Shown here one piece after another: positions 735 through 15,828 of a DNA stretch of 15,828 bases. Under the pieces are notes generated by a model. It saw only the letters and a program-made list of their open reading frames with translations, did not search any database and was not told where the DNA came from. Where the stretch lies: IMG/VR virus record IMGVR_UViG_3300031997_002496. One strand, written 5' to 3'. Origin of the DNA: a virus. How positions within the stretch are numbered: position 1 is the stretch's first letter; each line of letters starts with the position of its first letter. The translations under genes were made by a program, and so were the position numbers.

Positions 735-1010
735 ATGCGTCGAACAAAGCGAGCAGGAATCGGGGAAGAGAAAGTGAAGAAGATTTCCGTCAAGCGACTC
801 CCCCGCAAGACCTCCTTCATTGTGCAGTACTCTGACGGACGTCGAGTAGAAACGTCGTACGTAGAGATCCAAGGAAATGCTACGCTCTACCTGGACCCTG
901 GAACGAAAGAGCCCGTCCTCCGGACAGAAGCAAACGTAAATCTCGGACACGCCACAGGAACCTGCGCGGTATGCGGGGGAGATACAGATGACCAACACGC
1001 CCATGCTTGA
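735..1010 (+). CDS. hypothetical protein (91 aa), translationally coupled to the response regulator
   Basis: ATG at 735 lies 4 nt after the TGA of the receiver gene, and the sequence GGGGGATGAGG sits upstream. The 3' end overlaps the SNF2 gene start by 23 nt. Basic N-terminus, C-terminal CAVCGG. No recognisable domain. Confidence 0.45.
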   Translation: MRRTKRAGIGEEKVKKISVKRLPRKTSFIVQYSDGRRVETSYVEIQGNATLYLDPGTKEPVLRTEANVNLGHATGTCAVCGGDTDDQHAHA

Positions 1011-3207
1011 CCGCTTCAAGATCGCCGCCAAGCAAAAGAAAGAAAAGAAGAAACCGGCGGAGCCGGAGTCCTTCAAATGGACAAGCGGCCCTGAGGAAAA
1101 AGAAGAGCCGGATGGTGCGGTCATGCGCGCCGCAAAGATGTTCGGTAAGGGTATGGGCGGGCTCGCCGCGGGAAATCTGGCAGCGACGCCTCTGGCCATA
1201 GGTACTTTCGCGCTGGACGACCGCCTCAAAGAGCAGAGGCCTGTAGGTACTCGGCAGATTGCCTCAGAGATGGGGCAGAAGATCGACAAGTATACGCACG
1301 GGGATCCTGGGGGCGGAGTCGGAGCGACCAGGGATGGGAAACTGGTTACGCTCATTCGTACGCGGCCAAAGGACTCAGAAGCCATCAAGGCGCACGAAGT
1401 GGGCCACGTCAAAAACGTTGAGATGGTTGGGAAGATGCCGTGGGGCCTCGCGCGAAGCGGCTCCGGAATGTTGACCAGTCTGAGTGGCCCCGCGGCGGGA
1501 GTCTATTCCGCCGTCGCCGACGACCCGTCGTACACCCCCTCGATGGTGCACCTCGGACTGAGCGCGCCGATCCTGTTGGACGAAGCTCTCGCATCTCTCC
1601 GAGCCCTGCATCACATGACTGGAAAGCATGGCCTCGGTACAGGGATGAAGCGGTCCCTCCCTCTGCTGCCAGCCTTTGGGTCGTATGCGGCGCAAGCCCT
1701 CGCACCGGCCGGAATCGTAGCGCTGCGCCGCTTCCTCAAAAAGAGGGAGGATGAAAAAAAAAAGACCAGCGGGGGAGTAGCCGAGAAAACGGCTAAGATC
1801 ACAACCAAGCTCAAGCCGCACCAACAGCGGGTCGTTGACCGCATGGAAGACGAAGACCAGCCGGGCATTGTGGCGGCCCATGGGTTGGGTTCCGGCAAAA
1901 CGCTGACAAGCCTGGCGGTGCAAGAGGCGCTCGGACTTCCTGCCGACATCGTAACACCTGCGGCCCTCCAGTCGAACTACCAAAAAGAGATCAAAGCTCA
2001 CACCACCAAGCATCCCGAAACACACATTCAAAGCTTGGAGGGCGTCGCTCGTACGGGCGGCTCGGGTCTCAAGAGCCCCTTCCTGGTGGTGGATGAAGCC
2101 CACCGTCTGCGAAATGCGGGCAAGGCTCGCACGGGGATCAAAGCTTCTCCAGCCAAGAAACGCCTCGCCCTCACCGGGTCCCTTCTCTACAACCACCCCT
2201 CCGACGTATCAGGCCCCATCAACATGGTAGCGGGGCGCTCCGTGCTTCCGGAGAACCCCGACGAATTCACTCAACGTTTCCTGCAAGACGTCCCCATGAG
2301 TCGCAGTCTCTGGGAACGTCTCCGGGGTACGCCCGCGTTCTATCAGACCCGTCTCAATCCAAAGTCGGTGGGGTCGCTCCAGGCAGCTCTCGACAAGTAC
2401 GTTGATTTTCACCCCGGTAGCACTGAGGACTTCCCGACGCGAGAAGACGCGACTGTCCGCGTACCGATGACCCGCGACCAGATGAAGCTGTACGAAAACG
2501 TTGGTAAGGATCAACCTGGCTGGCTGCGTCGGAAGGTTCTGATGAACCTCCCACCGACCAAAGCCGAAGCGAAACAGCTCAACGCTTTCCTCACCGGTGT
2601 CCGGCAGGTAGCCAACACAACGCAGGGATTTGACACCAGCGCCCACCCGGCGCACCAGCCGAAGATCGACCGAGCTGTGACAGAGCTGCAGAGCATGCTG
2701 GCGAAGAATCCTCGTGCGAAAGCAATCGTCTACTCGCACTACCTCGAATCAGGGATCGACCCGTACAAGAAGAAGCTTGAGGAACTCCACATCCCGCATG
2801 GTTCTTTCACCGGCGAGATGCCGCGCGCTGAACGGGACCGCATGGTGAAAGACTACAACTCCGGGAAGCTGAAAGCCCTGCTGCTCTCCAGCGCCGGCGG
2901 CGAAGGCTTGGACCTCAAGGGAACTCGCCTCATCCAACTCCTCGAGCCCCACTGGAATCAGGAGAAGCTGAAGCAGGTCATCGGTCGCGGCATCCGCTAC
3001 AAGAGCCACTCCGGCCTCCCCGAGAATGAGCGAAACGTCCTGGTGCAGCGGTACCTCGCAACGCGAGCTCCCTACGGAGCCATGGAGCGCCTGGGCCTAC
3101 GCAAGCCCGGCTACGGCGTAGATGAGTACCTCGATGAGATGGGCGCCCGTAAGGAGCAGCTGAACGAGCAGGTCCGGCGCATGCTGCGAGAGCCACAAAG
3201 TACTTGA
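988..3207 (+). CDS. SNF2-family helicase/ATPase with an N-terminal HExxH (zincin-like) domain; polyvalent-protein-like
   Basis: 739-aa ORF. GGGGAG sits 6 nt upstream of the ATG. The N-terminal ~260 aa contain AHEVGH (nt 1393-1407). A Lys-rich linker (KKREDEKKKTSGG) follows. The SNF2 N-domain motifs are present: GLGSGKT (Walker A), VVDEAHRLRN (DEAH box) and LALTGSLLYNHP. The helicase C-domain carries AIVYSHY...LLLSSAGGEGLDL...QVIGRGIRYKSH (motif VI). Confidence 0.85.
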   Translation: MTNTPMLDRFKIAAKQKKEKKKPAEPESFKWTSGPEEKEEPDGAVMRAAKMFGKGMGGLAAGNLAATPLAIGTFALDDRLKEQRPVGTRQIASEMGQKIDKYTHGDPGGGVGATRDGKLVTLIRTRPKDSEAIKAHEVGHVKNVEMVGKMPWGLARSGSGMLTSLSGPAAGVYSAVADDPSYTPSMVHLGLSAPILLDEALASLRALHHMTGKHGLGTGMKRSLPLLPAFGSYAAQALAPAGIVALRRFLKKREDEKKKTSGGVAEKTAKITTKLKPHQQRVVDRMEDEDQPGIVAAHGLGSGKTLTSLAVQEALGLPADIVTPAALQSNYQKEIKAHTTKHPETHIQSLEGVARTGGSGLKSPFLVVDEAHRLRNAGKARTGIKASPAKKRLALTGSLLYNHPSDVSGPINMVAGRSVLPENPDEFTQRFLQDVPMSRSLWERLRGTPAFYQTRLNPKSVGSLQAALDKYVDFHPGSTEDFPTREDATVRVPMTRDQMKLYENVGKDQPGWLRRKVLMNLPPTKAEAKQLNAFLTGVRQVANTTQGFDTSAHPAHQPKIDRAVTELQSMLAKNPRAKAIVYSHYLESGIDPYKKKLEELHIPHGSFTGEMPRAERDRMVKDYNSGKLKALLLSSAGGEGLDLKGTRLIQLLEPHWNQEKLKQVIGRGIRYKSHSGLPENERNVLVQRYLATRAPYGAMERLGLRKPGYGVDEYLDEMGARKEQLNEQVRRMLREPQST
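1754..1763 (+). repeat. A10 homopolymer containing an in-frame A_AAA_AAG slippery heptamer inside the SNF2 gene
   Basis: Ten consecutive A residues in a ~60% GC sequence. The main frame reads gaA AAA AAA AAG (E-K-K-K). This places the dnaX-type X_XXY_YYZ heptamer A_AAA_AAG (1758-1764) in the zero frame, exactly in the linker between the HExxH domain and the SNF2 domain. Confidence 0.6.
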
Positions 3208-3883: not shown

Positions 3884-4378
3884 ATGTTCGTCGTACTCGA
3901 TCTTGACCAGACCCTCGCTGACAATGCCCACCGCGCCCATCACGTAGAAAAGGAACCCAAGAACTGGGATGCGTTCTTTGCTCCGGACCTCGTCATCAAA
4001 GACACGGTCATCGTGGGCGCAGAACGTGTCCTCACCCACTTCAATGACTTGAAATACGACTTCGTCATCCTCACAGGACGTAACGAAGATCTCCGCGACA
4101 CGACCATGCGCTGGATCCAAGAGAAGCTGAGCATCACGGTGCTCGATACACACCTGCTCATGCGCCCCAACGGAAACATGCTCAACGCGGCGGAGTTCAA
4201 GCGGGAGCAGCTGCTCAACTTCAAGCAGGGGCTCGAGAATCGAGACAGCGACTTCATCATCATCGATGATGACTCCGCGGTAGGAGCGGCTCTGAGTTCT
4301 TTCGGTGTCGTCCTCAAGGCGCCGGAGTGCTGGCCTCTTCTTTTCCCGGTCCAGGAACCCGAGAAAATCGAAGAGTAG
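3884..4378 (+). CDS. HAD-superfamily phosphatase (polynucleotide 3'-phosphatase / 5'-nucleotidase-like)
   Basis: AAGGAG lies 8 nt upstream of the ATG. HAD motif I is VVLDLDQTL (DxDxT), motif II is VILTGR, a conserved Lys is present, and motif IV is IIIDDD. At 164 aa it is a cap-less minimal HAD, as in phage PNK phosphatase domains. Confidence 0.8.
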   Translation: MFVVLDLDQTLADNAHRAHHVEKEPKNWDAFFAPDLVIKDTVIVGAERVLTHFNDLKYDFVILTGRNEDLRDTTMRWIQEKLSITVLDTHLLMRPNGNMLNAAEFKREQLLNFKQGLENRDSDFIIIDDDSAVGAALSSFGVVLKAPECWPLLFPVQEPEKIEE

Positions 4379-4379
4379 C

Positions 4380-4392
4380 CCTATACTGGCGC
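4380..4392 (+). promoter_or_regulatory. CTATACTGG motif copy 5 nt upstream of ATG 4393 (possible -10 of a leaderless transcript)
   Basis: cccCTATACTGGcgcATG. No convincing -35. Confidence 0.2.
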
Positions 4393-5028
4393 ATGCCGCT
4401 CAACGGGGCATACTCCTGGAAAGAGGACAATCTCTCCCCCGACGAGCGGGTTGACCATTTTTTCAATTTGATTGATCACGCCGTCGAGAACGGAATTCCG
4501 CTAGCTGAGCTGTTCCACCGGAAGCACGTCAAAAGCTTCCTCCTCTATCTCTTGCAACGGTACGACGAGCCCTGTAAAACCTGCAACCTTCGCCCAACTA
4601 AAGGATCAACCACAATGCCCAAGCTGACTCTGACCAGTACGTTTGCCTCGTCCATCGTCATCGGTGATCCGGCCAACATCACCTTCACCTTGCTCCCCAA
4701 AGAGACGAAGTCCGTAGAAGTGACGGATGTCCAACTCCGCCAGCTCACCCCAGGCCTGGAGAAGCTCAAAGGAGCTGGCTGGCTGAACTACGTGGCAGGC
4801 GTCGCGGCTCCCGTCGCTGTCCCAGAGCCCGTCAAGGTGGTCGAAGACGTGAAGGTCGTCGCAGTGCCGGTGGCCCCGCCGCCCGCTCCTGAGCCCGTTG
4901 CCGCCCCTGAACCCGTAGCGGCCCCTGAGCCTGCCGCTGAGGAAGCCGCCGCCCCTGAGGCTCCCGTGGCGAAGGTGGAAGAGGCTCCGAAGCAGAACCT
5001 CTTCGACCGGAAGAATCGCAACCGCTAA
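4393..5028 (+). CDS. hypothetical protein with a C-terminal Pro/Ala-rich repeat region (possible virion/structural protein); an internal alternative start at 4615 is plausible
   Basis: Continuous frame. ATG 4393 has no SD but follows a CTATACTGG motif. In-frame ATG 4615 has AAAGGA 9 nt upstream and would yield a 137-aa protein (MPKLTLTSTF...). The C-terminus carries VAVPEPVKV...APEPVAAPEPVAAPEPAAEEAAAPEAP. Confidence 0.5.
   Translation: MPLNGAYSWKEDNLSPDERVDHFFNLIDHAVENGIPLAELFHRKHVKSFLLYLLQRYDEPCKTCNLRPTKGSTTMPKLTLTSTFASSIVIGDPANITFTLLPKETKSVEVTDVQLRQLTPGLEKLKGAGWLNYVAGVAAPVAVPEPVKVVEDVKVVAVPVAPPPAPEPVAAPEPVAAPEPAAEEAAAPEAPVAKVEEAPKQNLFDRKNRNR
4886..4960 (+). repeat. imperfect 18-bp tandem repeats (gcccctgaRcccgtWgcS, about 3.5 copies) encoding an (A/P)PEPVA linker
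   Basis: Direct reading: the copies are gctcctgagcccgttgcc, gcccctgaacccgtagcg and gcccctgagcctgccgct, plus a partial fourth. Confidence 0.6.
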
Positions 5029-5038
5029 GCCGTTTTTC

Positions 5039-5053
5039 ACTATACTCGGAGGC
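5039..5053 (+). promoter_or_regulatory. CACTATACTCGG motif copy 7 nt upstream of ATG 5054 (possible -10 of a leaderless transcript)
   Basis: tcaCTATACTcggaggcATG. The 7-nt -10-to-ATG spacing fits a leaderless start. Alternatively GGAGG is an SD, but only 1 nt from the ATG. Confidence 0.2.
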
Positions 5054-5470
5054 ATGAGCCACCCTCTCGAGAATGCCTACTGGACCGGCCAGGTCGCGGC
5101 CTGTGAATCGTTTGGCGTCAAAGAAGCTGGAGTCCTCGGACAGATCGGCAAGTGGGGCGGCAAAGCCCTGCAATGGGGTGGGCGTGCCGCCGGAGTTGTA
5201 CCGGTCGCCGGTGAGGCCGTCGGCGCTATCGCTGGTGGCCTCGGCGGCGTGATGCAGGGCGCTGCCCAAGGTGAAGGCTGGAAGGGCATGGCCGCTCGCG
5301 GAGCGGCCGGTGCTGCCACTGGCGCGATGCCTCTCGGAGCTGGTCTGGTCGCTGGCGCTGCGAGTGATCTCGCGCTCGACAAGATGCTGGCGAAGAAACC
5401 CCCGGGGCCTCAGAACGCCCCAATGCCGGGGATGATGGGGCAGGGGCACCTTCCGGGGCATGCTGCGTGA
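5054..5470 (+). CDS. Gly/Ala-rich protein with glycine-zipper-like segments (138 aa)
   Basis: ATG 5054 is preceded by CTATACTcGGAGGc. The protein has GxxxG/AxxxA runs (AGEAVGAIAGGLGGVMQGAAQG, AAGAATGAMPLGAGLVAGAAS). Its stop overlaps the next start. Caveat: high GC alone can inflate Gly/Ala content. Confidence 0.5.
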   Translation: MSHPLENAYWTGQVAACESFGVKEAGVLGQIGKWGGKALQWGGRAAGVVPVAGEAVGAIAGGLGGVMQGAAQGEGWKGMAARGAAGAATGAMPLGAGLVAGAASDLALDKMLAKKPPGPQNAPMPGMMGQGHLPGHAA

Positions 5471-5952
5471 TGTCCCTCTCTCACCACGCATACAGCCTCG
5501 GAGCCTCGGACGCCAAAGTGGCGTTCTTTGGAGAGCTCTACGAGAAGCACATCAAAGGGGATCTTGGCCCCTTCGCGAGCGGTCTCTTCGTAGGGAGCCC
5601 TCTTAGTGCCGCGGCGGCAGGAGCCGCGGGACAAGCTCTCGACACGCCGGCTGGAGGATCAAAGATTCTCCGAAGTATCGGTGTCGGAGCCGGTGCAGCG
5701 GCGGCGAATAAGGTAGTTTCCCCTATCGCTAATTTCGTAGCCCATGCGGTAATGATGGGGCTCAACCCCATTCTGTATTCTTTGCCGGTGTTGGGATACC
5801 CGCCAGTCGCCGCGGCTATTTCGCAGCTGCTCGGAACCGCGATCCACGAGATTCCGACAGGTATCGCCCAGTCGTATGCTGCAACAAAGGGCCGAGCAGC
5901 GGCGCAACATCTTGAGAAGTTCCTACAGAAAAAGGACGTGAGGGTACCATGA
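5467..5952 (+). CDS. Gly/Ala-rich protein (161 aa)
   Basis: Its start overlaps the stop of the previous ORF, and its stop overlaps the next start in an ATGATG arrangement (translational coupling). Ala/Gly zipper segments. C-terminus is SYAATKGRAAAQHLEKFL. Confidence 0.5.
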   Translation: MMSLSHHAYSLGASDAKVAFFGELYEKHIKGDLGPFASGLFVGSPLSAAAAGAAGQALDTPAGGSKILRSIGVGAGAAAANKVVSPIANFVAHAVMMGLNPILYSLPVLGYPPVAAAISQLLGTAIHEIPTGIAQSYAATKGRAAAQHLEKFLQKKDVRVP

Positions 5953-6563
5953 TGACCAAAGAATGCACCTGCAAGGACGGCAAGAAAGATCCGAAGTGCA
6001 AGGCTTGCTCGAAGGGTGACGTCAACCTGGACAGCTTTCACCGCCTGAATCCTGAGGCCAAGCCCAAGACGGCTGGGCAGTTCAAGCTCGCCGGAGGGAA
6101 CCCCGGACTGTGGGGTGGGCTGAGTCAGGCCACCAAAGACCGCATCCTCAGCGCGGGCAAGGCGGGGCTCACCAGCGCCGTGCTGCCTGCGGCGGGCTCT
6201 GCGCTCGCAGCGGGTCTGGCGGCTGAACCGGGGCAGGGCTGGTCCGACGCGGCGAAGGCAGGGCTCGTGGGCGCAACGGCTGGCGGGCTTGCTGGCGCAG
6301 GACACCACCTCGGCATGACGGGGTCCAGCGACCTGGCGCACAGCTACCAGCGCGGCATCGGCGGCGACGTTCGAAACATGGGCAACTGGGGACGAGAGCA
6401 GATGGGACGCCCACTTCTGGCGCACCCCAACACCCCGCCACCGCCGAAAGTTGTTCCTGCTCCCGATGTGACGCCGACTCCCTCTGTCACCCCTGAAATT
6501 CCGAAGACGGGGATGTTCTACGAGTTCGGGAAGACCGCGGCGCTCTCTGCCTTCGCAATCTGA
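5949..6563 (+). CDS. Gly/Ala-rich protein (204 aa) with an N-terminal Cys cluster and a conserved C-terminal peptide
   Basis: ATGA overlap with the upstream gene. N-terminal CTCKDGKKDPKCKAC looks like a zinc knuckle. The middle is a Gly/Ala zipper, followed by a Pro-rich segment (PPPPKVVPAPDVTPTPSVTPEIP). The C-terminal peptide is FYEFGKTAALSAFAI. Confidence 0.55.
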   Translation: MMTKECTCKDGKKDPKCKACSKGDVNLDSFHRLNPEAKPKTAGQFKLAGGNPGLWGGLSQATKDRILSAGKAGLTSAVLPAAGSALAAGLAAEPGQGWSDAAKAGLVGATAGGLAGAGHHLGMTGSSDLAHSYQRGIGGDVRNMGNWGREQMGRPLLAHPNTPPPPKVVPAPDVTPTPSVTPEIPKTGMFYEFGKTAALSAFAI

Positions 6564-6570
6564 GACTCCC

Positions 6571-6756
6571 ATGCCTTTCAAAAGCGAAGCACAGCGCCGG
6601 CTGTTCCACGTGAAGGCTGACAAGGGAGAGATCTCCAAGGACACCGTGAGCGAGTGGGAGCACGCCACCAAGAACAAGAAGAAACTCCCAATGCACGTAA
6701 AGAAGTCCTACGAGCTTGGAAAACAGGCGGCGCTGAAAAGCTTTGCACTGAGGTGA
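6571..6756 (+). CDS. small Lys-rich protein (61 aa) ending in the same C-terminal peptide; in frame with, and one TGA away from, the next large ORF
   Basis: ATG at 6571, 8 nt after the upstream stop. C-terminus SYELGKQAALKSFALR. TGA at 6754-6756 is in the same frame as GTG 6760. Confidence 0.45.
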   Translation: MPFKSEAQRRLFHVKADKGEISKDTVSEWEHATKNKKKLPMHVKKSYELGKQAALKSFALR

Positions 6757-6759
6757 GCG

Positions 6760-9700
6760 GTGGGTGAGTACGACCGGGGAGCTCGAGCAGCGCTAGCCCT
6801 CTTCAGCAAGGAGGCCAATACCGGTGTGACCGCGGGCCACGTCAATCCTCTTCCGGTCGCAGGCAGCGGGTTCAATCAAGTAGCACAACAGGGAAATCCG
6901 ATGGCAGGACGGGTCGCCCACTCCCTCGTCGGTGGCGCCACTGGCGGAATTCTCAACGCGATGATGGCCCCCTCAGGGGACCGCATGCGGCAGGGGGCCA
7001 TTGGCTTTGCGTCAGACGCCATCGGAAGCGCCCTGGGCCCTTGGGGGATGATTGCCAGCCCCCTTCTGAACATGGGGCTCCAACAGCTGACATCCTCAAG
7101 TGGGGAAGAGAAGCGCGCTGACCACGCGGATGATCGGCTGAAAGAGCGAATCAAAACGGAGTTCCCGCCGGACACGCTGGCAAAACTCAGAGCACAAGCA
7201 AAAGAACTCGAGCTCGCTCCGGGACGGTACTACCTCCCGATGAAAGACAAGGCCGGGAACACAGCGGCAATTGCAGCGTTCAAGACCGTTGGCCCGAAGG
7301 ATCAGCTGGTACTGGCGACAGTTCTGAAACCCAAGAACAACCCTCCGTCAGGCACATCACTTTCGCACCTGATGAAGCAACCTCTCGGGTCCCAGATTGC
7401 CAAGGTGGATGCGTCCCCCAAGACATACACGATCCGCAAGAACGACGCAGGGCGCCTGACGTGCACCTGCAAGAGCTTCAAGTTCAACCACCGAGCGGCG
7501 GGCACGAACTGTAAGCACATCGACGAGCACCTTGGAAACACGAAGGAGTCTGCGAACCGGTTTGAGCAGTTCCTCCTCAACCAGGGTAACGTCAGCGATC
7601 CTCAGAAGACGCAACTCCGTGGACAGTTCGGACGGCTGACCCCTCGCCCGACGGCGAAGTCGAAGGCCCTCACCAGCCAAGCTTTGGCGCTGGAGCCTGG
7701 TCCGCAGCAAGCAGCGTCTCTGCGGTCCATGCGGACGTTGATGCAGACGCCGCACTACCCGGACAAAGACAGCCTCGAACGAACGCGCCGAATTCACGAG
7801 CTCTCCCTCACACCAAAGCTTCGAGCAATGGGCGGCAAGAGTCTTGACGCTCGGCGTGCTGCGGCGACCGACCCCACGTTCTTCTACGACGAGAAGAAAC
7901 GGTTCGCGACGCCAGGAGAGTACCAGGCCAAGTCGTTACGTCTCGGCGAAGAAACAGCTCCCACAGGGCTCCGGGCCGAACACGTTCTTCGCTCTGCGGC
8001 GGCAGGGAAACCCATCGAAACCAAGCTCTCCCCTGAAGCAGGGCGGCTGGTGATGTACCCAGACGCCTTGAAGGTGCAGCGTGAGCGCCTGAACAAGCAA
8101 CGCACCACCCCCGGCCAAACCAAACCCTGGGACCCCACCGACATGCGCCAGACCCTTGAGCACGAGGGGGCGGAGCGCAAGATGGTTCTCGAAGGCGTGC
8201 GCAGAGGCAAGCCGTCCACAGCGTACTCTTCGCACTGGGGCAGTGAGGCTGACGTCGCGGCGAACCAGGTCGCAGCCAAGGATCCCAAGAGTCAGTGGGT
8301 TCCAAACAACCCCGACTCCTTCATCGAGAAGGAACACTGGGACCGCCTCTACAAGCAGCACGGCGGGACTCGGGGACGCCCCATCCCGTCAGACAGTCGA
8401 GCTTCACGCAGCTTGGATAGATCAATCGCAGGCGTCATGGCGAAGACCCCCTTGACCGAGAAAACGCGGCCAGATCTCACAGCCGCCTTGGACGCAGGAG
8501 TCATGGGAATGCCTCTCCATCCGGAACTCGAAGCGCGTCTGAAGCGTGACTTCACCAAACTGAAGCCGGAGCTCGGTGAAACCTCCGCGCCCTGGGACGA
8601 CGCATCCCGGAGCCAAAAGGCTCTCGAAGTCCTGAAGAGTCGAACCCGGATGAAGACGTCCGCGGAAGGCGTGCGTCACTCTGGTGAACCCATCGACAAC
8701 CAGGAGGAGCCTCAGACCACGGAGGCTCCGATGCCTCCGCCTGAGAAGAAGAAGTCCTGGCTCCCTGCCTTGGGTACCGCGGCGGCGCTGGGACTTGGGA
8801 CGTACGGCCTCCTTCGCCGACCCTCGTTCTCTGCGAACCCCGCCCTGCGGAAAACACAGCAGTTGGCGGCGGAGAAAGGGTTCCACCGCATCGTTCCGGT
8901 GATGAAGTCCACAGATCTCCCAGACCCTGAGGCGGGGTTCCTGGGGCGGCTGCACCACAAGATTCAACCCAAAGTCGATGAGCAGGGCCGCATGAACTTG
9001 CTCAACCGCTTCAAGTTCTGGGCGCAGGAAGGCGGAGAAGCCGTCCCTATCGGGTACACGGACAAAGGGAAGGCGTTCATCCCCAACGGAGGGAAGCCGG
9101 TCAAGACTGAAGGCGTTGTCTTCGGTCGCCCCATGCTCGAGCCGAAGGAACGCAAACTTGTACGGGGTGGGGTGGACATCGAGGGGTCGGCGAAGACCCA
9201 ACGAGCCCTTACCGACATGGGGTTGAAGGGCAAGGGCATGGAAGCAACCCTCCTTCAGCGCCATTCCCCAGGAGCGGCGCCAAAGACGGTCGTCGATCTC
9301 TCCAAGTTCATGGCGCCTCCAAAGGGGAGAGAAACTTCGAACCAGCGGGTTGCGCGGATTCGCGAAATTCAGAAAGCAATGCAGGCAAAATTCAAAGGTA
9401 CGGAGATGGAAGACCACCTCCTCAAACCGACCCTTGGATTCAACTCCGGCGGGAAGTTCCCCATGAGCGGGGACGATTGGGGCAAACACCTCGCCAGGTT
9501 CGACAAAGCCATGGCAGATCCGGCGTTCAAGGCGAAATTTCAGAAAGCCACCCCCGACGAATTCGCCAACATGGTGTGGGACAAGAAGATTCTCGAGGGA
9601 CACACGCTCCACGAGATGCTGAAGAACCCGCAGTCGGCGATTGCTCAGCAGCAGATCCCCAACCGGCTTGGGGAGTGGCGCGTCAACGTTACCAAGGGTG

Positions 9701-10158
9701 AAGCCCCGTTGAGCATGATGGCGCCGCGTGGGGCTACCGACAACCCGATGGAGTCTCTCAAAGAACTGGCAACTGAGGGAGTAAGCCCCTTCAAGATCAA
9801 ACAGTTCGTTGAAGGCCACGTCCGAAAGCTTCCGAAGCACTACCGCGAAGGAACGTACGGCGCTGACGTGATGCCGTACTACACGCCTGAAGGGAAGCTG
9901 GACTACAAATTCGTCGAGCTCAACCCATCAGAGCGGGCGGGGTACCACGGTAGCGCCGGTGGCGGCTCAGGCTTCCTCGACGCCAGCAACATCCCCTGGG
10001 CGGGGCACGCACACTACCGCACGGCGACGGGCCGCCACACGACGCCAGTGGCTATGGCCGGAGGCTTGGCAGCGGCTGGGCTGGGCGGTATGGCGGCTCG
10101 AGCGCTGACGCCTGAGCAGAAGGATGAGGAAGAAGACGCCCCACATCCTGTGGGCTAA
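6760..10158 (+). CDS. very large protein (1132 aa) with a Gly/Ala-rich N-terminus, a SWIM-type zinc finger and one predicted TM helix; candidate internal virion / ejection protein
   Basis: Uninterrupted 3.4-kb frame. GTG 6760 has GAGGTG 4 nt upstream. ATG at 6901 (MAGRVAHS...) is an alternative start. A SWIM-like CxCx(n)CxH is present (LTCTCKSFKFNHRAAGTNCKH, nt ~7454-7520). A hydrophobic helix (SWLPALGTAAALGLGTYGLL, ~8754-8815) is also present. The N-terminal 16 aa repeat the peptide motif seen at the ends of the two preceding ORFs. Confidence 0.8.
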   Translation: MGEYDRGARAALALFSKEANTGVTAGHVNPLPVAGSGFNQVAQQGNPMAGRVAHSLVGGATGGILNAMMAPSGDRMRQGAIGFASDAIGSALGPWGMIASPLLNMGLQQLTSSSGEEKRADHADDRLKERIKTEFPPDTLAKLRAQAKELELAPGRYYLPMKDKAGNTAAIAAFKTVGPKDQLVLATVLKPKNNPPSGTSLSHLMKQPLGSQIAKVDASPKTYTIRKNDAGRLTCTCKSFKFNHRAAGTNCKHIDEHLGNTKESANRFEQFLLNQGNVSDPQKTQLRGQFGRLTPRPTAKSKALTSQALALEPGPQQAASLRSMRTLMQTPHYPDKDSLERTRRIHELSLTPKLRAMGGKSLDARRAAATDPTFFYDEKKRFATPGEYQAKSLRLGEETAPTGLRAEHVLRSAAAGKPIETKLSPEAGRLVMYPDALKVQRERLNKQRTTPGQTKPWDPTDMRQTLEHEGAERKMVLEGVRRGKPSTAYSSHWGSEADVAANQVAAKDPKSQWVPNNPDSFIEKEHWDRLYKQHGGTRGRPIPSDSRASRSLDRSIAGVMAKTPLTEKTRPDLTAALDAGVMGMPLHPELEARLKRDFTKLKPELGETSAPWDDASRSQKALEVLKSRTRMKTSAEGVRHSGEPIDNQEEPQTTEAPMPPPEKKKSWLPALGTAAALGLGTYGLLRRPSFSANPALRKTQQLAAEKGFHRIVPVMKSTDLPDPEAGFLGRLHHKIQPKVDEQGRMNLLNRFKFWAQEGGEAVPIGYTDKGKAFIPNGGKPVKTEGVVFGRPMLEPKERKLVRGGVDIEGSAKTQRALTDMGLKGKGMEATLLQRHSPGAAPKTVVDLSKFMAPPKGRETSNQRVARIREIQKAMQAKFKGTEMEDHLLKPTLGFNSGGKFPMSGDDWGKHLARFDKAMADPAFKAKFQKATPDEFANMVWDKKILEGHTLHEMLKNPQSAIAQQQIPNRLGEWRVNVTKGEAPLSMMAPRGATDNPMESLKELATEGVSPFKIKQFVEGHVRKLPKHYREGTYGADVMPYYTPEGKLDYKFVELNPSERAGYHGSAGGGSGFLDASNIPWAGHAHYRTATGRHTTPVAMAGGLAAAGLGGMAARALTPEQKDEEEDAPHPVG

Positions 10159-10188
10159 AAAACGCCCCCAGCTACGGGGGCGGTACTT
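10157..10188 (-). terminator. intrinsic terminator (7-bp GC stem plus U6) oriented for the minus strand, lying between convergent genes
   Basis: Plus strand reads aaaaaaCGCCCCCagctacGGGGGCGgtacttc. On the minus strand the transcript is CGCCCCC-guagcu-GGGGGCG followed directly by UUUUUU. On the plus strand the A-run precedes the stem and no U-tract follows it. Confidence 0.7.
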
Positions 10189-10613
10189 CACTGAGTCCTG
10201 ACAACCAGGCACCAGTTGGTCCAACGCTTACGGAATGCGTTGTGCGTCATCTTCGTTCCCAAGAGCCGGAGCGGCGCCGGGTCCGCCAGGTAGACGTACT
10301 TCGCGTCACAGCCGTGCACGACGCCGAAGTGGTCGCCGTCGAGATGAACAAGCAGCAGCTTCTCCTTCTTCAGCGCGGCTTGCAGCTCTCGGAATCGCAT
10401 GCGGTAGTTGTGCTGCACGTGAAGCTTTCGCTTGCGAAACGCTTTGATCATCGCATGTACTCGCGTGCCCTTTTCAGGGGTGCACCCAAGCTCACGCTTC
10501 AAGCGGCGGTACGGTGACCGGTCGCCGAAGTGATGAAGGATCATCGCTACAGAGTGCACTCCGCACGAATAGCTGTCGAGCTGAATGGATCTACGGAAAA
10601 CGGATATCGTCAC
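10188..10613 (-). CDS. standalone C39-like papain-fold cysteine peptidase domain (141 aa)
   Basis: GTG start with AGGAGG 6 nt upstream on the minus strand. Catalytic Cys context YSCGVHSVAMILHHFG matches the bacteriocin-processing C39 signature ([DE]CGxAxLAM(I/V)LxxxG). The His block is DHFGVVHG, followed by VYLADPA (the conserved DPA/Asp region). No ABC-transporter domains are attached. Confidence 0.7.
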   Translation of the reverse strand: MTISVFRRSIQLDSYSCGVHSVAMILHHFGDRSPYRRLKRELGCTPEKGTRVHAMIKAFRKRKLHVQHNYRMRFRELQAALKKEKLLLVHLDGDHFGVVHGCDAKYVYLADPAPLRLLGTKMTHNAFRKRWTNWCLVVRTQ

Positions 10614-14887: not shown

Positions 14888-15820
14888 TTAGCCCTGAATG
14901 CTGACCGTGGGCTTCGCCGTGCCATTACCCGGCACGACCGTACCCTGCGTCAGCTTCTGCATCAGAGGAGCGAGCGGCGTGTTGGCGAACACCTTCGACA
15001 GGGCGTCGGAGACGGAGTCTCCGCCGATTGCCTGCTGAATGCTCCAGGCCTTGGCGACCTGAACCATGGTGTCGTTGTTGCTGAGCGCCAGCAGCGCCTC
15101 GGAGAACCCGGCCTGCGCTGCGCCGAACTTCGAGACGATTGCTTCTGCTTCCGCCTTCATGCCGATGATGGCTTGGTCCTGCGCCATCTTCTTGAGGCCG
15201 AGCACCTGGTCCTGTGCCCGCTTCTGGCGGGACAGTTCCTGGTCGAACTCGAAATTCTTGAGTTCCTCAGCCGATGCTTCGAGGTCCTTTTGAGTCCCGA
15301 TCCGCTTCAGCTCGTTCGCCAGCTTGGCCATGACGACGGTGAGCTCAGAAGCTGCGAGCTCGGTGCTGAGCTCGTTCTTCCGCATCAGGGTGGCGGCGCG
15401 CACTTCAGCCTCCTCCTTGACGACGCTCTCCTTCTCCTTGGTGACCTCGAGGCCCCGCTTCAGCTGGGACAGCTCGATGTTGGTCTTGACCACCGCGAGG
15501 GCGCTCTGCTTGAACGTCCCTTCGATGGCCTGGTCCAGGCAGTCCACCGCCAAGACTTCGACGTCGGTGACGCGCATCCCGTTCTCCGGGAAGCTGCGGC
15601 CCTTCGCCTTGCCCGTGCCTTCCGGAGCCCCGAGCACCAGGCCCTGAAGAATCTCAGTGGCGTTGGGACGGAAGTCCTCGAAGCGGAGCTTCTTGACGGC
15701 GCCCTTCAGATCCGAGCGCATGCGGTCACAGAGGAACTTGACGTAGTTCTCCACGTTCCACCACTTCGAGCTGTCACCCTCGAAGTTCACCCGGTAGCCC
15801 AGGCGCAGGTTGAACTGCAC
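14888..15820 (-). CDS. SPFH/band-7 (flotillin/YqiK-like) protein, 5'-truncated by the window edge
   Basis: The frame stays open to the window end (…DYVQFNL), so the true start lies beyond 15828. The SPFH-like core includes MRVTDVEVLAVD. A long Ala/Glu-rich coiled-coil follows, with the flotillin-type KAEAEAIVSKFGAAQAG repeat and a C-terminal tail. The stop at 14888 is followed by the strong terminator. Confidence 0.5.
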   Translation of the reverse strand: MQFNLRLGYRVNFEGDSSKWWNVENYVKFLCDRMRSDLKGAVKKLRFEDFRPNATEILQGLVLGAPEGTGKAKGRSFPENGMRVTDVEVLAVDCLDQAIEGTFKQSALAVVKTNIELSQLKRGLEVTKEKESVVKEEAEVRAATLMRKNELSTELAASELTVVMAKLANELKRIGTQKDLEASAEELKNFEFDQELSRQKRAQDQVLGLKKMAQDQAIIGMKAEAEAIVSKFGAAQAGFSEALLALSNNDTMVQVAKAWSIQQAIGGDSVSDALSKVFANTPLAPLMQKLTQGTVVPGNGTAKPTVSIQG

Positions 15821-15828
15821 GTAGTCCT

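What the first reader, a model, noticed from the sequence alone, without database searches (positions are those of the whole stretch)
6754..6762. The 61-aa ORF and the 1132-aa ORF share a frame, separated by a single TGA; the repeated peptide is tandemly duplicated across the stop
ORF 6571..6756 and ORF 6760..10158 are in the same frame (6760-6571=189). The only intervening stop is TGA 6754-6756, followed by gcg and GTG. Reading through would give ...KSYELGKQAALKSFALR-X-A-V-GEYDRGARAALALFSKE..., two motif copies 20 residues apart. There are three possibilities. One is programmed TGA read-through or recoding, giving a minor N-terminally extended giant protein. Another is a recent nonsense mutation or sequencing error splitting one gene. 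The third is a deliberate termination-reinitiation arrangement, since GAGGTG overlaps the stop 4 nt before GTG 6760.
Basis: seen in the sequence. Interest (0 to 1): 0.55.

Follow-up and report, generated by a model that had tools for sequence, protein, structure and literature searches.

The report
Split gene with translational coupling
The small and the giant reading frames are two halves of a gene that is whole in some related viral-type contigs and split in others; the stop codon between them is real and conserved, and the shared frame is an evolutionary leftover, not a read-through device.

Summary
ORF 6571-6756 (61 aa) and ORF 6760-10158 (1132 aa) share a frame. Only TGA 6754-6756 and one codon lie between them, and a copy of the peptide Y-x-x-G-x-x-x-A-x-x-x-F sits on each side.

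I compared 25 related lineages from independent metagenome assemblies. Fourteen have the split. Their stops are TGA, TAG or TAA, and the stop-to-start spacing is 3 nt, 2 nt, a 1-nt overlap, a 4-nt overlap or 43 nt. Seven are in frame and seven are not. Eleven lineages carry one fused ORF.

A GGAG/GAGG Shine-Dalgarno-like element in the last two codons of the small ORF, followed by ATG or GTG, recurs in ten of the twelve lineages with 2- or 3-nt spacers. No RNA structure or Rfam family was found at the junction.

This excludes a sequencing error, a recent nonsense mutation and TGA-specific recoding. It argues against programmed read-through. The best explanation is a conserved gene fission with ordinary translational coupling.

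The more interesting pattern is that every split small protein keeps its own peptide copy, while every fused protein has just one. One relative (L002) has CAG in place of the stop and a decayed first copy. This suggests the peptide is a tag needed once per polypeptide. The junction itself is ordinary.

The parts
6571..6756 (+). Small gene (61 aa). It consists of an N-terminal ~45-aa module (MPFKSEAQRR...LPMHVKK, 6571-6705) and its own copy of the tag peptide.
   Evidence: ORF and called gene. There are free-standing 61-70 aa homologues on many contigs. dN/dS is 0.10 for the module and 0.29 for the tag. AlphaFold2 predicts two helices at residues 6-18 and 23-37 with pLDDT 80-89.
6709..6744 (+). 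Tag copy at the C-terminal end of the small protein (YELGKQAALKSF), 3 residues before the stop.
   Evidence: Regex and HMM hits. It is present in all 14 split lineages and absent as a second copy from all 11 fused ones.
6750..6756 (+). Shine-Dalgarno-like GAGG (6750-6753) running into the stop codon TGA (6754-6756). GAGGTGA matches the extended SD consensus.
   Evidence: Sequence. GGAG or GAGG occupies the same place in ten of the twelve lineages with 2- or 3-nt spacers, GGGG in one of those twelve and in the 1-nt-overlap lineage. The stop is TGA, TAG or TAA in relatives.
6757..6759 (+). 3-nt spacer (gcg).
   Evidence: It varies among in-frame relatives (agg, cgc, cgt, ccg, agc, tgc). It is 2 nt, or replaced by an overlap, in others.
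6760..10158 (+). Large gene (1132 aa, GTG start). In order it has an N-terminal tag, a Gly-rich conserved N-domain, a SWIM-like CxC...CxH motif (about 7435-7521), a variable middle region, hydrophobic segments and a C-terminal ATP-grasp domain (within 8740-10158).
6769..6804 (+). Tag copy at the N-terminal end of the large protein (YDRGARAALALF).
   Evidence: It is conserved in all relatives, whether split or fused.
6519..6554 (+). Tag copy at the C-terminal end of the preceding 204-aa ORF (5949-6563), 2 residues before its stop.
   Evidence: Homologues in most of the 17 loci scanned show it at the same position (not found in L020). It is the closest DNA relative of the small ORF's copy (27/42).
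5078..5113 (+). Tag copy near the N-terminus of the 138-aa ORF (5054-5470).
5491..5526 (+). Tag copy near the N-terminus of the 161-aa ORF (5467-5952).

Best explanation
The 61-aa and 1132-aa ORFs are the two products of a gene that exists in two interchangeable states in this family of large virus-like contigs: fused into one ORF, or split at this point.

In the window it is split. Ribosomes terminate at TGA 6754-6756. The large ORF is then initiated at GTG 6760 with the help of the Shine-Dalgarno-like GAGG (6750-6753) embedded in the last two codons of the small ORF. This is ordinary translational coupling, either re-initiation or SD-assisted initiation within a tightly packed operon. It yields two separate polypeptides.

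The shared frame is a vestige of the fission or fusion history. It is also an evolutionary hinge, because a point mutation of the stop or a short in-frame deletion re-fuses the gene. It is not a device for programmed read-through.

Each polypeptide of the five-gene block 5054-10158 carries exactly one copy of the peptide Y-x-x-G-x-x-x-A-x-x-x-F at or near an end. When the gene is split both halves carry a copy. When it is fused only one copy is kept. I infer that the peptide is a docking or assembly tag needed once per polypeptide.

Shown: the conserved stop, the variable frame, the recurrent SD and start, the fused orthologues and the one-tag-per-polypeptide pattern.
Inferred: coupling as the initiation mechanism, and the tag's function.
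For: (1) Split state in 14 lineages from independent assemblies.
- In frame with a 3-nt spacer: window, L003, L004, L005, L007, L013, L025.
- Out of frame: L006, L010, L016 and L026 (2 nt), L027 (TGATG), L029 (GTGA overlap), L019 (43 nt).
- Sources.

(2) All three stop codons are used.

(3) GGAG/GAGG sits directly before the stop, followed by ATG or GTG, in ten of the twelve lineages with 2- or 3-nt spacers. Other genes of the window have similar SDs 5-10 nt upstream of their starts.

(4) Fused orthologues with one tag: L002, L014, L011, L012, L017, L020, L023, P0005, P0006, P0010, P0009.

(5) Two fused relatives show how the states interconvert (DNA alignment).
- L014 equals its near-identical relative L013 minus a clean 54-nt deletion. 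The deletion removes tag copy 1, the stop, the spacer and the ATG.
- L002 has CAG where L013 has TAG, keeps the old ATG as an internal Met, and has lost tag copy 1 through a 30-nt deletion plus Y>H and G>E changes.

(6) Fused and split states are interleaved on the tree. Fitch parsimony gives 10 changes, and 6-10 across 100 bootstrap trees.

(7) The association of split state with two tags and fused state with one tag is 10/10 versus 11/11 for the lineages scored at that point (Fisher p = 2.8e-6, not corrected for phylogeny). The four split lineages found later also fit.

(8) The small ORF is under purifying selection.

(9) The junction has no RNA structure beyond shuffles, no Rfam family, and no promoter or terminator.
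Against: - No expression data exist. Coupling versus independent SD-driven initiation cannot be told apart in silico.
- Within the window's own clade the 3-nt in-frame spacing is retained in 7 lineages. Basal read-through of TGA followed by G would produce a small amount of a fusion protein, and natural variants such as L002 suggest that product would be tolerated. A minor functional read-through product in this clade is therefore not excluded.
- The direction of change (fission or fusion first) is not resolved. Recombination between contigs could inflate the number of apparent transitions.
- The tag's function is inferred only from its distribution. The AlphaFold2 model of the tag region is low-confidence (pLDDT about 50), and its amphipathicity is not significant.
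Confidence: 0.8

Rival explanations
1. Programmed TGA read-through (or recoding to Sec or Trp) makes a minor N-terminally extended giant protein that carries the module and both tag copies, in the manner of the Q-beta A1 protein.
For: The two ORFs are in frame with a single TGA between them. The 3-nt in-frame spacing is kept in 7 related lineages. Fused orthologues show that a module-plus-large-protein polypeptide is functional in relatives.
Against: - The in-frame relatives use TAG (L003, L013) and TAA (L005) as well as TGA.
- Seven split lineages are out of frame.
- The downstream ORF has its own SD and start.
- The spacer codon is not conserved.
- There is no stimulatory structure (z = +0.57) and no SECIS or other Rfam hit.
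- TGA is the ordinary stop of 11 of 21 genes and is absent in frame from the long ORFs.
- In natural fusions the first tag copy is always lost, so a two-tag polypeptide is not what selection keeps.
Confidence: 0.07
2. The stop is an artefact or a recent lesion: a sequencing or assembly error, or a fresh nonsense mutation that broke a single gene, making the 61-aa ORF a dead fragment.
For: Fused single-ORF orthologues exist at up to 73-78% identity. The two ORFs are in frame.
Against: - The same split, with a 61-aa ORF, SD and start, is found in 14 lineages from ENA, JGI, Logan and NCBI assemblies of different samples.
- The small ORF shows purifying selection, with dN/dS of 0.10 and 0.29.
- Its C-terminal tag copy is conserved as a pattern although its sequence has diverged.
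- Many free-standing module-plus-tag proteins exist.
Confidence: 0.02
3. The two genes are translated independently. The GAGG is a normal SD, the proximity of the stop is just phage-style gene packing, and expression of the large gene does not depend on translation of the small one.
For: L019 has a 43-nt spacer with its own AAGGAA upstream of the start, and L028 has the small gene with no downstream partner. SD-like sequences precede most genes in the window.
Against: Thirteen of the 14 split lineages keep the stop and start within 3 nt of each other or overlapping. This is the classical signature of coupling. The distinction is quantitative and cannot be settled from sequence.
Confidence: 0.11

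Closest known systems
Translational coupling / termination-reinitiation in bacterial and phage operons (for example trpE-trpD and trpB-trpA UGAUG overlaps, and closely packed phage late genes). Established knowledge, from memory.
   Same: The stop of the upstream gene and the start of the downstream gene lie within a few nucleotides of each other or overlap. A Shine-Dalgarno element lies inside the 3' end of the upstream coding sequence. Relatives show the usual interchangeable forms: 2-3-nt spacers, TGATG, GTGA.
   Different: Nothing mechanistically unusual. The peculiarity is only that the two coupled genes are halves of what is a single gene in relatives, and that both halves carry the same short peptide next to the junction.
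Gene fission/fusion ('Rosetta-stone') pairs. Established concept, from memory.
   Same: The same two protein parts are encoded as one ORF in some genomes and as two adjacent, co-oriented ORFs in others. This implies that they act together.
   Different: The toggling is unusually frequent within one narrow family (6-10 inferred changes). It also comes with gain or loss of a short tag, so that each polypeptide has one.
Programmed stop-codon read-through producing minor extended virion proteins (Q-beta A1 via UGA; retroviral gag-pol UAG). Established knowledge, from memory.
   Same: In-frame ORFs separated by a single stop codon, here UGA.
   Different: In those systems the leaky stop and its context are conserved and the extension has no start of its own. 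Here the stop identity, spacing and frame all vary, and the downstream ORF has its own SD and start.
Short terminal targeting peptides that load several different proteins into one assembly: encapsulin cargo-loading peptides, microcompartment encapsulation peptides, the phage T4 capsid-targeting sequence. A resemblance from memory, a lead and not a test.
   Same: A short conserved peptide sits at the N- or C-terminus of several otherwise unrelated, co-encoded proteins, one per polypeptide.
   Different: There is no sequence similarity to those peptides. No shell or partner has been identified, and no experimental evidence exists. In fused proteins the tag is internal, after the 45-aa module.

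Membership tests
Programmed stop-codon read-through / recoding site | Downstream ORF in the same frame, separated by one stop codon | tested here: met
   Met in the window.
Programmed stop-codon read-through / recoding site | Identity and context of the leaky stop conserved among relatives | tested here: not met
   TGA, TAG and TAA all occur. The following base and the spacer codon vary.
Programmed stop-codon read-through / recoding site | Frame relationship conserved among relatives | tested here: not met
   Seven lineages are in frame and seven are out of frame, with 2-nt, -1, -4 and 43-nt spacings.
Programmed stop-codon read-through / recoding site | Extension has no independent initiation signal | tested here: not met
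   ATG or GTG is conserved in all split lineages. It is preceded by GGAG/GAGG in ten of the twelve lineages with 2- or 3-nt spacers.
Programmed stop-codon read-through / recoding site | Stimulatory RNA element (hairpin, pseudoknot or SECIS) downstream of the stop | tested here: not met
   The fold of 6725-6825 has z = +0.57 against shuffles. No Rfam family matches in the window.
Programmed stop-codon read-through / recoding site | Extended protein detectable in vivo | not testable with these tools
   This needs proteomics or ribosome profiling.
Translationally coupled gene pair | Stop and start within a few nucleotides of each other or overlapping | tested here: met
   The window has a 3-nt spacer. 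Thirteen of the 14 split relatives are within 3 nt or overlap.
Translationally coupled gene pair | Shine-Dalgarno element inside the 3' end of the upstream ORF, at a suitable distance from the start | tested here: met
   GAGG at 6750-6753 lies 6 nt before GTG 6760. Relatives have GGAG, GAGG or GGGG at this position.
Translationally coupled gene pair | Downstream translation depends on upstream translation | not testable with these tools
   This needs a reporter with a premature stop in the small ORF.
Gene fission/fusion (Rosetta-stone) pair | Orthologous single ORF covering both parts in related genomes | tested here: met
   L002, L014, L011, L012, L017, L020, L023, P0005, P0006, P0010 and P0009.
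Gene fission/fusion (Rosetta-stone) pair | Both split parts maintained by selection | tested here: met
   dN/dS is 0.10 and 0.29 for the small ORF. The large ORF is intact and 70-83% identical among relatives.
Terminal targeting / cargo-loading peptide systems | Same short peptide at the termini of several co-encoded, otherwise unrelated proteins | tested here: met
   There are five copies in five consecutive ORFs against 0.11 expected. Their positions are conserved across the 17 loci scanned.
Terminal targeting / cargo-loading peptide systems | Identified shell or receptor that binds the peptide, with the peptide necessary and sufficient for loading | not testable with these tools
   No partner was identified. 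The neighbouring vault-like and C39 peptidase genes are only candidates.

The most novel reading that the evidence does not exclude
The peptide Y-x-x-G-x-x-x-A-x-x-x-F is a portable, position-independent docking or packaging tag. Every polypeptide of this five-gene block would need it exactly once, for example to be loaded into or anchored on a particle. That particle could be the virion or the shell of the conserved neighbouring major-vault-protein-like gene. The repeatedly toggled split/fused junction at 6754-6762 would then be a natural experiment that reveals the rule: fission is tolerated only when the freed 45-aa module acquires its own tag, and the spare tag decays after fusion.
Probability: 0.3. 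Interest if true: 0.65.

Novelty: new member of a known kind. Interest (0 to 1): 0.3.

Why it matters
For genome annotation the result is practical. The stop is real, both ORFs should be kept as separate genes, and no recoding event should be annotated.

The wider interest is the comparative pattern around the junction. Split lineages have two tags, fused lineages have one, and the spare copy has decayed in L002. That pattern gives a testable handle on an uncharacterised short peptide shared by five consecutive proteins. One of them is a large protein with an ATP-grasp ligase domain. The contigs also encode a vault-like protein. The peptide is a candidate assembly or targeting signal.

Tried and rejected
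- GenBank phages. A DNA search ('distant' mode) with 5000-10200 and a tblastn with the 61-aa protein found no match.
- GTDB genome contigs. The scan found no relative, so no host or prophage context was obtained.
- Pfam and PHROGs. There was nothing for the 61-aa protein, even at E = 10, or for the other tag-bearing small proteins. The large protein gave only one weak PHROG hit (E = 0.0013, unknown function).
- PDB. A profile search and a Foldseek search with the 45-aa module gave nothing meaningful.
- Amphipathic-helix idea for the tag. The hydrophobic moment is not consistently above shuffles, so I dropped the claim.
- Recent tandem DNA duplication across the stop. I rejected this because the two copies are 20/42 identical, which is the background level.
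- prfB-like +1 frameshifting for the out-of-frame relatives. I considered this and rejected it. The downstream frame is -1/+2 relative to the upstream frame, and the downstream ORFs have their own starts.
- Alternative genetic code with TGA as a sense codon. I rejected this because TGA terminates 11 of 21 genes, and homologues of the 204-aa ORF end at the same place.
Full report
**1. Observation**

The window reads ...ctg agg TGA gcg GTG ggt gag tac... at 6748-6771.
- ORF 6571..6756 (61 aa, ATG start) and ORF 6760..10158 (1132 aa, GTG start) are in the same frame. They are separated only by TGA 6754-6756 and the codon gcg.
- The gene caller used on the source contig (ENA ERZ27247761 k141_2973883, 21 kb) made the same two calls.
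- Reading through gives ...KKSYELGKQAALKSFALR*AVGEYDRGARAALALFSKE....
- GAGG is at 6750-6753.

**2. The motif is real and wider than the finding**

The pattern Y..G...A...[FY] occurs five times in the six-frame stop-free stretches of the window, against 0.11 expected from shuffles with a maximum of 1. All five copies are on the + strand in five consecutive ORFs:

| ORF | Position of the tag | Sequence |
|---|---|---|
| 5054 (138 aa) | near the N-terminus | AYWTGQVAACESF |
| 5467 (161 aa) | near the N-terminus | AYSLGASDAKVAF |
| 5949 (204 aa) | 2 residues from the C-terminus | FYEFGKTAALSAF |
| 6571 (61 aa) | 3 residues from the C-terminus | see above |
| 6760 (1132 aa) | residue 4 | see above |

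A small HMM built from the copies finds no further convincing copy in the window. The same positions are occupied in homologues across the 17 related loci I scanned, with occasional gaps.

At the DNA level the two copies flanking the stop are 20/42 identical, no more than any other pair (15-20/42). The small ORF's copy is closest to the copy at the end of the 204-aa ORF (27/42). The 'tandem duplication' is therefore a shared peptide pattern, not a recent duplication.

**3. Relatives**

Sources of related sequences:
- A protein search with the conceptually fused N-terminal 699 residues found 16 homologues.
- Scans of IMG/VR and JGI metagenomes with an alignment of the N-domain found 16 loci.
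- A second protein search with the 61-aa protein found 37 small homologues.
- Look-ups of encoding contigs gave DNA for 12 more places.

After removing duplicates there are 25 lineages whose junction can be read.

Split lineages:

| Lineage | Junction | Spacing | Frame |
|---|---|---|---|
| window | GAGG TGA gcg GTG | 3 nt | in frame |
| L003 | GAGG TAG agg ATG | 3 nt | in frame |
| L004 | GGAG TGA cgc GTG | 3 nt | in frame |
| L005 | GGAG TAA cgt GTG | 3 nt | in frame |
| L007 (= L008 = L015) | GGAG TGA ccg ATG | 3 nt | in frame |
| L013 | GAGG TAG agc ATG | 3 nt | in frame |
| L025 | GAGG TGA tgc GTG | 3 nt | in frame |
| L006 | GGAG TGA tc GTG | 2 nt | out of frame |
| L010 | GAGG TAA aa ATG | 2 nt | out of frame |
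| L016 | GGGG TAA ag ATG | 2 nt | out of frame |
| L026 | GGAG TGA cc GTG | 2 nt | out of frame |
| L027 | GGGG TGATG | 1-nt overlap | out of frame |
| L029 | aaGTGAct | 4-nt overlap | out of frame |
| L019 | own AAGGAA upstream of the start | 43 nt | out of frame |

L028 has the small gene at the end of its operon with no partner downstream.

Eleven lineages have one continuous ORF: L002 (= L009), L014, L011 (= L022), L012, L017 (= L018), L020 (= L021), L023, P0005, P0006, P0010 and P0009.

**4. What this says about the three hypotheses**

Sequencing error or recent nonsense mutation. This is excluded.
- The split recurs in assemblies of many different samples (ENA, JGI, Logan, NCBI).
- The small ORF is under purifying selection: dN/dS is 0.10 for the module and 0.29 for its tag. 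dS is near saturation, so these values are rough.

TGA-specific recoding. This is excluded.
- TAG and TAA replace TGA in relatives.
- TGA is the ordinary stop of 11 of 21 genes in the window.

Programmed read-through. This is not supported.
- Half of the split lineages are out of frame. Seven of 14 in frame against an expectation of 1/3 gives p = 0.15.
- The in-frame lineages all lie in the window's own half of the tree, where L006, L010 and L019 are out of frame.
- The spacer codon varies.
- The downstream ORF keeps its own start, with an SD-like element in ten of the twelve lineages with 2- or 3-nt spacers.
- The junction RNA folds no better than shuffles (z = +0.57).
- Rfam finds nothing, and there is no promoter or terminator at the junction.

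The stop-start arrangement, with an SD inside the last two sense codons, is the classical signature of translational coupling. The whole block is packed in this way: there are 4-nt overlaps at 5467 and 5949, a 7-nt gap at 6571 and a 3-nt gap at 6760.

**5. Fission/fusion history**

The DNA alignment of the junction shows two independent routes from split to fused.
- L014 is its near-identical relative L013 minus a clean 54-nt deletion. The deletion removes tag copy 1, the stop, the spacer and the ATG (KKA|YDAGVREARRQFDLR*SM|SDVKDYDKG).
- L002 keeps the former ATG as an internal Met and has CAG where L013 has TAG. It has lost tag copy 1 through a 30-nt deletion plus Y>H and G>E substitutions.

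On a neighbour-joining tree of the shared N-domain (186 columns), fused and split states are interleaved. Fitch parsimony needs 10 changes, and 6-10 over 100 bootstrap trees. Recombination could account for some of these changes, and the ancestral state is not resolved.

The in-frame 3-nt spacing is best read as a vestige of such events. It is also a hinge that allows one-step re-fusion. The 2-nt, -1 and -4 variants show that the frame itself is not under selection.

**6. One tag per polypeptide**

All 14 split small proteins end in their own tag copy ([AS]-Y-x-x-G-x-x-x-A-x-x-x-[FY]-x-[LV]-x-stop). All 11 fused proteins have a single copy after the module. For the lineages scored this is 10/10 against 11/11 (Fisher p = 2.8e-6, not corrected for phylogeny). 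The four lineages added later fit the pattern.

Together with the decay of the spare copy in L002, this suggests that the peptide is needed once per polypeptide. I infer a docking or assembly tag. Nothing here identifies its partner. The AlphaFold2 model of the tag region is low-confidence, and I could not show amphipathicity.

**7. What the proteins are**

The 45-aa module (MPFKS[EK]AQRR...W.....LP.HVKK):
- It matches 468 cluster representatives at E <= 1e-3.
- It sits almost always at residue 1 of proteins between 47 and more than 1000 aa long.
- Its partners vary: DUF5661, inorganic pyrophosphatase, a Zn-peptidase and Gly-zipper segments. It also occurs free-standing.
- It is not in Pfam, PHROGs, the PDB or GenBank phages.
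- AlphaFold2 predicts a helical hairpin, with helices at 6-18 and 23-37 and pLDDT 80-89.

The large protein:
- It has a conserved Gly-rich N-domain. This domain exists as a stand-alone ~200-aa protein in L026, L027 and L029.
- It has a sub-threshold SWIM-like zinc finger.
- Its middle region is variable and is absent from the 761-804-aa homologues.
- This agrees with the sub-threshold R2K ATP-grasp Pfam hits in homologues. The R2K clade was described in PMC4431377.

Genomic context. The contigs are 21-190 kb, and several are IMG/VR viral contigs. Conserved neighbours are a C39 peptidase, an ATP-dependent DNA ligase, an SNF2 helicase, a PNKP-like phosphatase and a major-vault-protein-like gene. 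I did not see structural hallmark genes in the stretches I fetched, so 'phage' is IMG/VR's label and not my result.

**8. Comparison with known systems and verdict**

The junction works like any translationally coupled gene pair. In evolutionary terms it is a fission/fusion ('Rosetta-stone') pair.

It fails four of the five testable defining features of a programmed read-through site. It shares with Q-beta A1-type sites only the single in-frame UGA.

I file it as a new member of a known kind, and the junction itself is ordinary. The one-tag-per-polypeptide pattern is the part worth following up. The most novel reading still open is that the peptide is a cargo or docking tag for a particle, whether the virion or the vault-like shell. 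I give that about 0.3.

Noticed in passing
window 14888-15828 (- strand, cut by the window end); full-length copies in L002 18634-21393 (-), L003 7848-10517 (-), and also L004, L005, L007, L027: A major-vault-protein-like gene (MVP_shoulder E = 6e-20; Vault repeats in the full-length 889-919 aa copies) is a conserved neighbour of the tag-bearing gene block. A 2023 preprint (bioRxiv 10.1101/2023.11.10.566534) reports MVP homologues in gut phages. I did not read it.
   Followed up: partly
window 5054-10158 (+): Five consecutive ORFs each carry one copy of Y-x-x-G-x-x-x-A-x-x-x-F at or near an end (5078, 5491, 6519, 6709, 6769). The positions are conserved across the 17 related loci scanned. L002 has possible further copies in other genes (1986-2327 on +, and about 1590-2021 on -).
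   Followed up: partly
window 988-3207 (+): The SNF2-type helicase is 739 aa here but 480-483 aa in relatives. The extra ~260 N-terminal residues contain an HEVGH motif and a Gly-rich hydrophobic stretch. This is possibly another fusion event.
   Followed up: no
window 10163-10613: A small stand-alone C39-family cysteine peptidase (10188-10613, - strand, E = 8e-19) lies convergent to the large gene here and in six related loci (L003-L008). A GC-rich hairpin with a T-run (10163-10182) sits between the two genes. Whether the peptidase processes the tag-bearing proteins is unknown.
   Followed up: no
window 6709-6750 versus 6519-6560: The small ORF's tag copy is more similar in DNA to the tag at the end of the preceding 204-aa ORF (27/42) than to any other copy (15-20/42). 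It is also more similar to that tag than to the corresponding copy in relatives. This may reflect gene conversion between neighbouring tags.
   Followed up: partly
large ORF 6760-10158; relatives P0006-P0008, L026, L027, L029: The large protein is modular. Its middle part is missing from the 761-804-aa homologues. The ~200-aa N-domain exists alone in three lineages. P0009 and P0012 (L019) carry an extra ~290-aa domain in front of the tag.
   Followed up: partly
proteins P0017-P0165 (relatives of the 45-aa module): Many module-bearing proteins from other contigs carry a different short motif after the module, of the form (A/S)FFDELEKIA, in place of the Y..G...A...F tag. This hints at a family of interchangeable short peptides behind one N-terminal module.
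   Followed up: no
window 4327-5028 (+): The ORF has a Pro/Ala-rich repetitive tail (PVAAPEPVAAPEPAAEEAAAPEAP) and no family match. The gene caller starts it at 4393.
   Followed up: no
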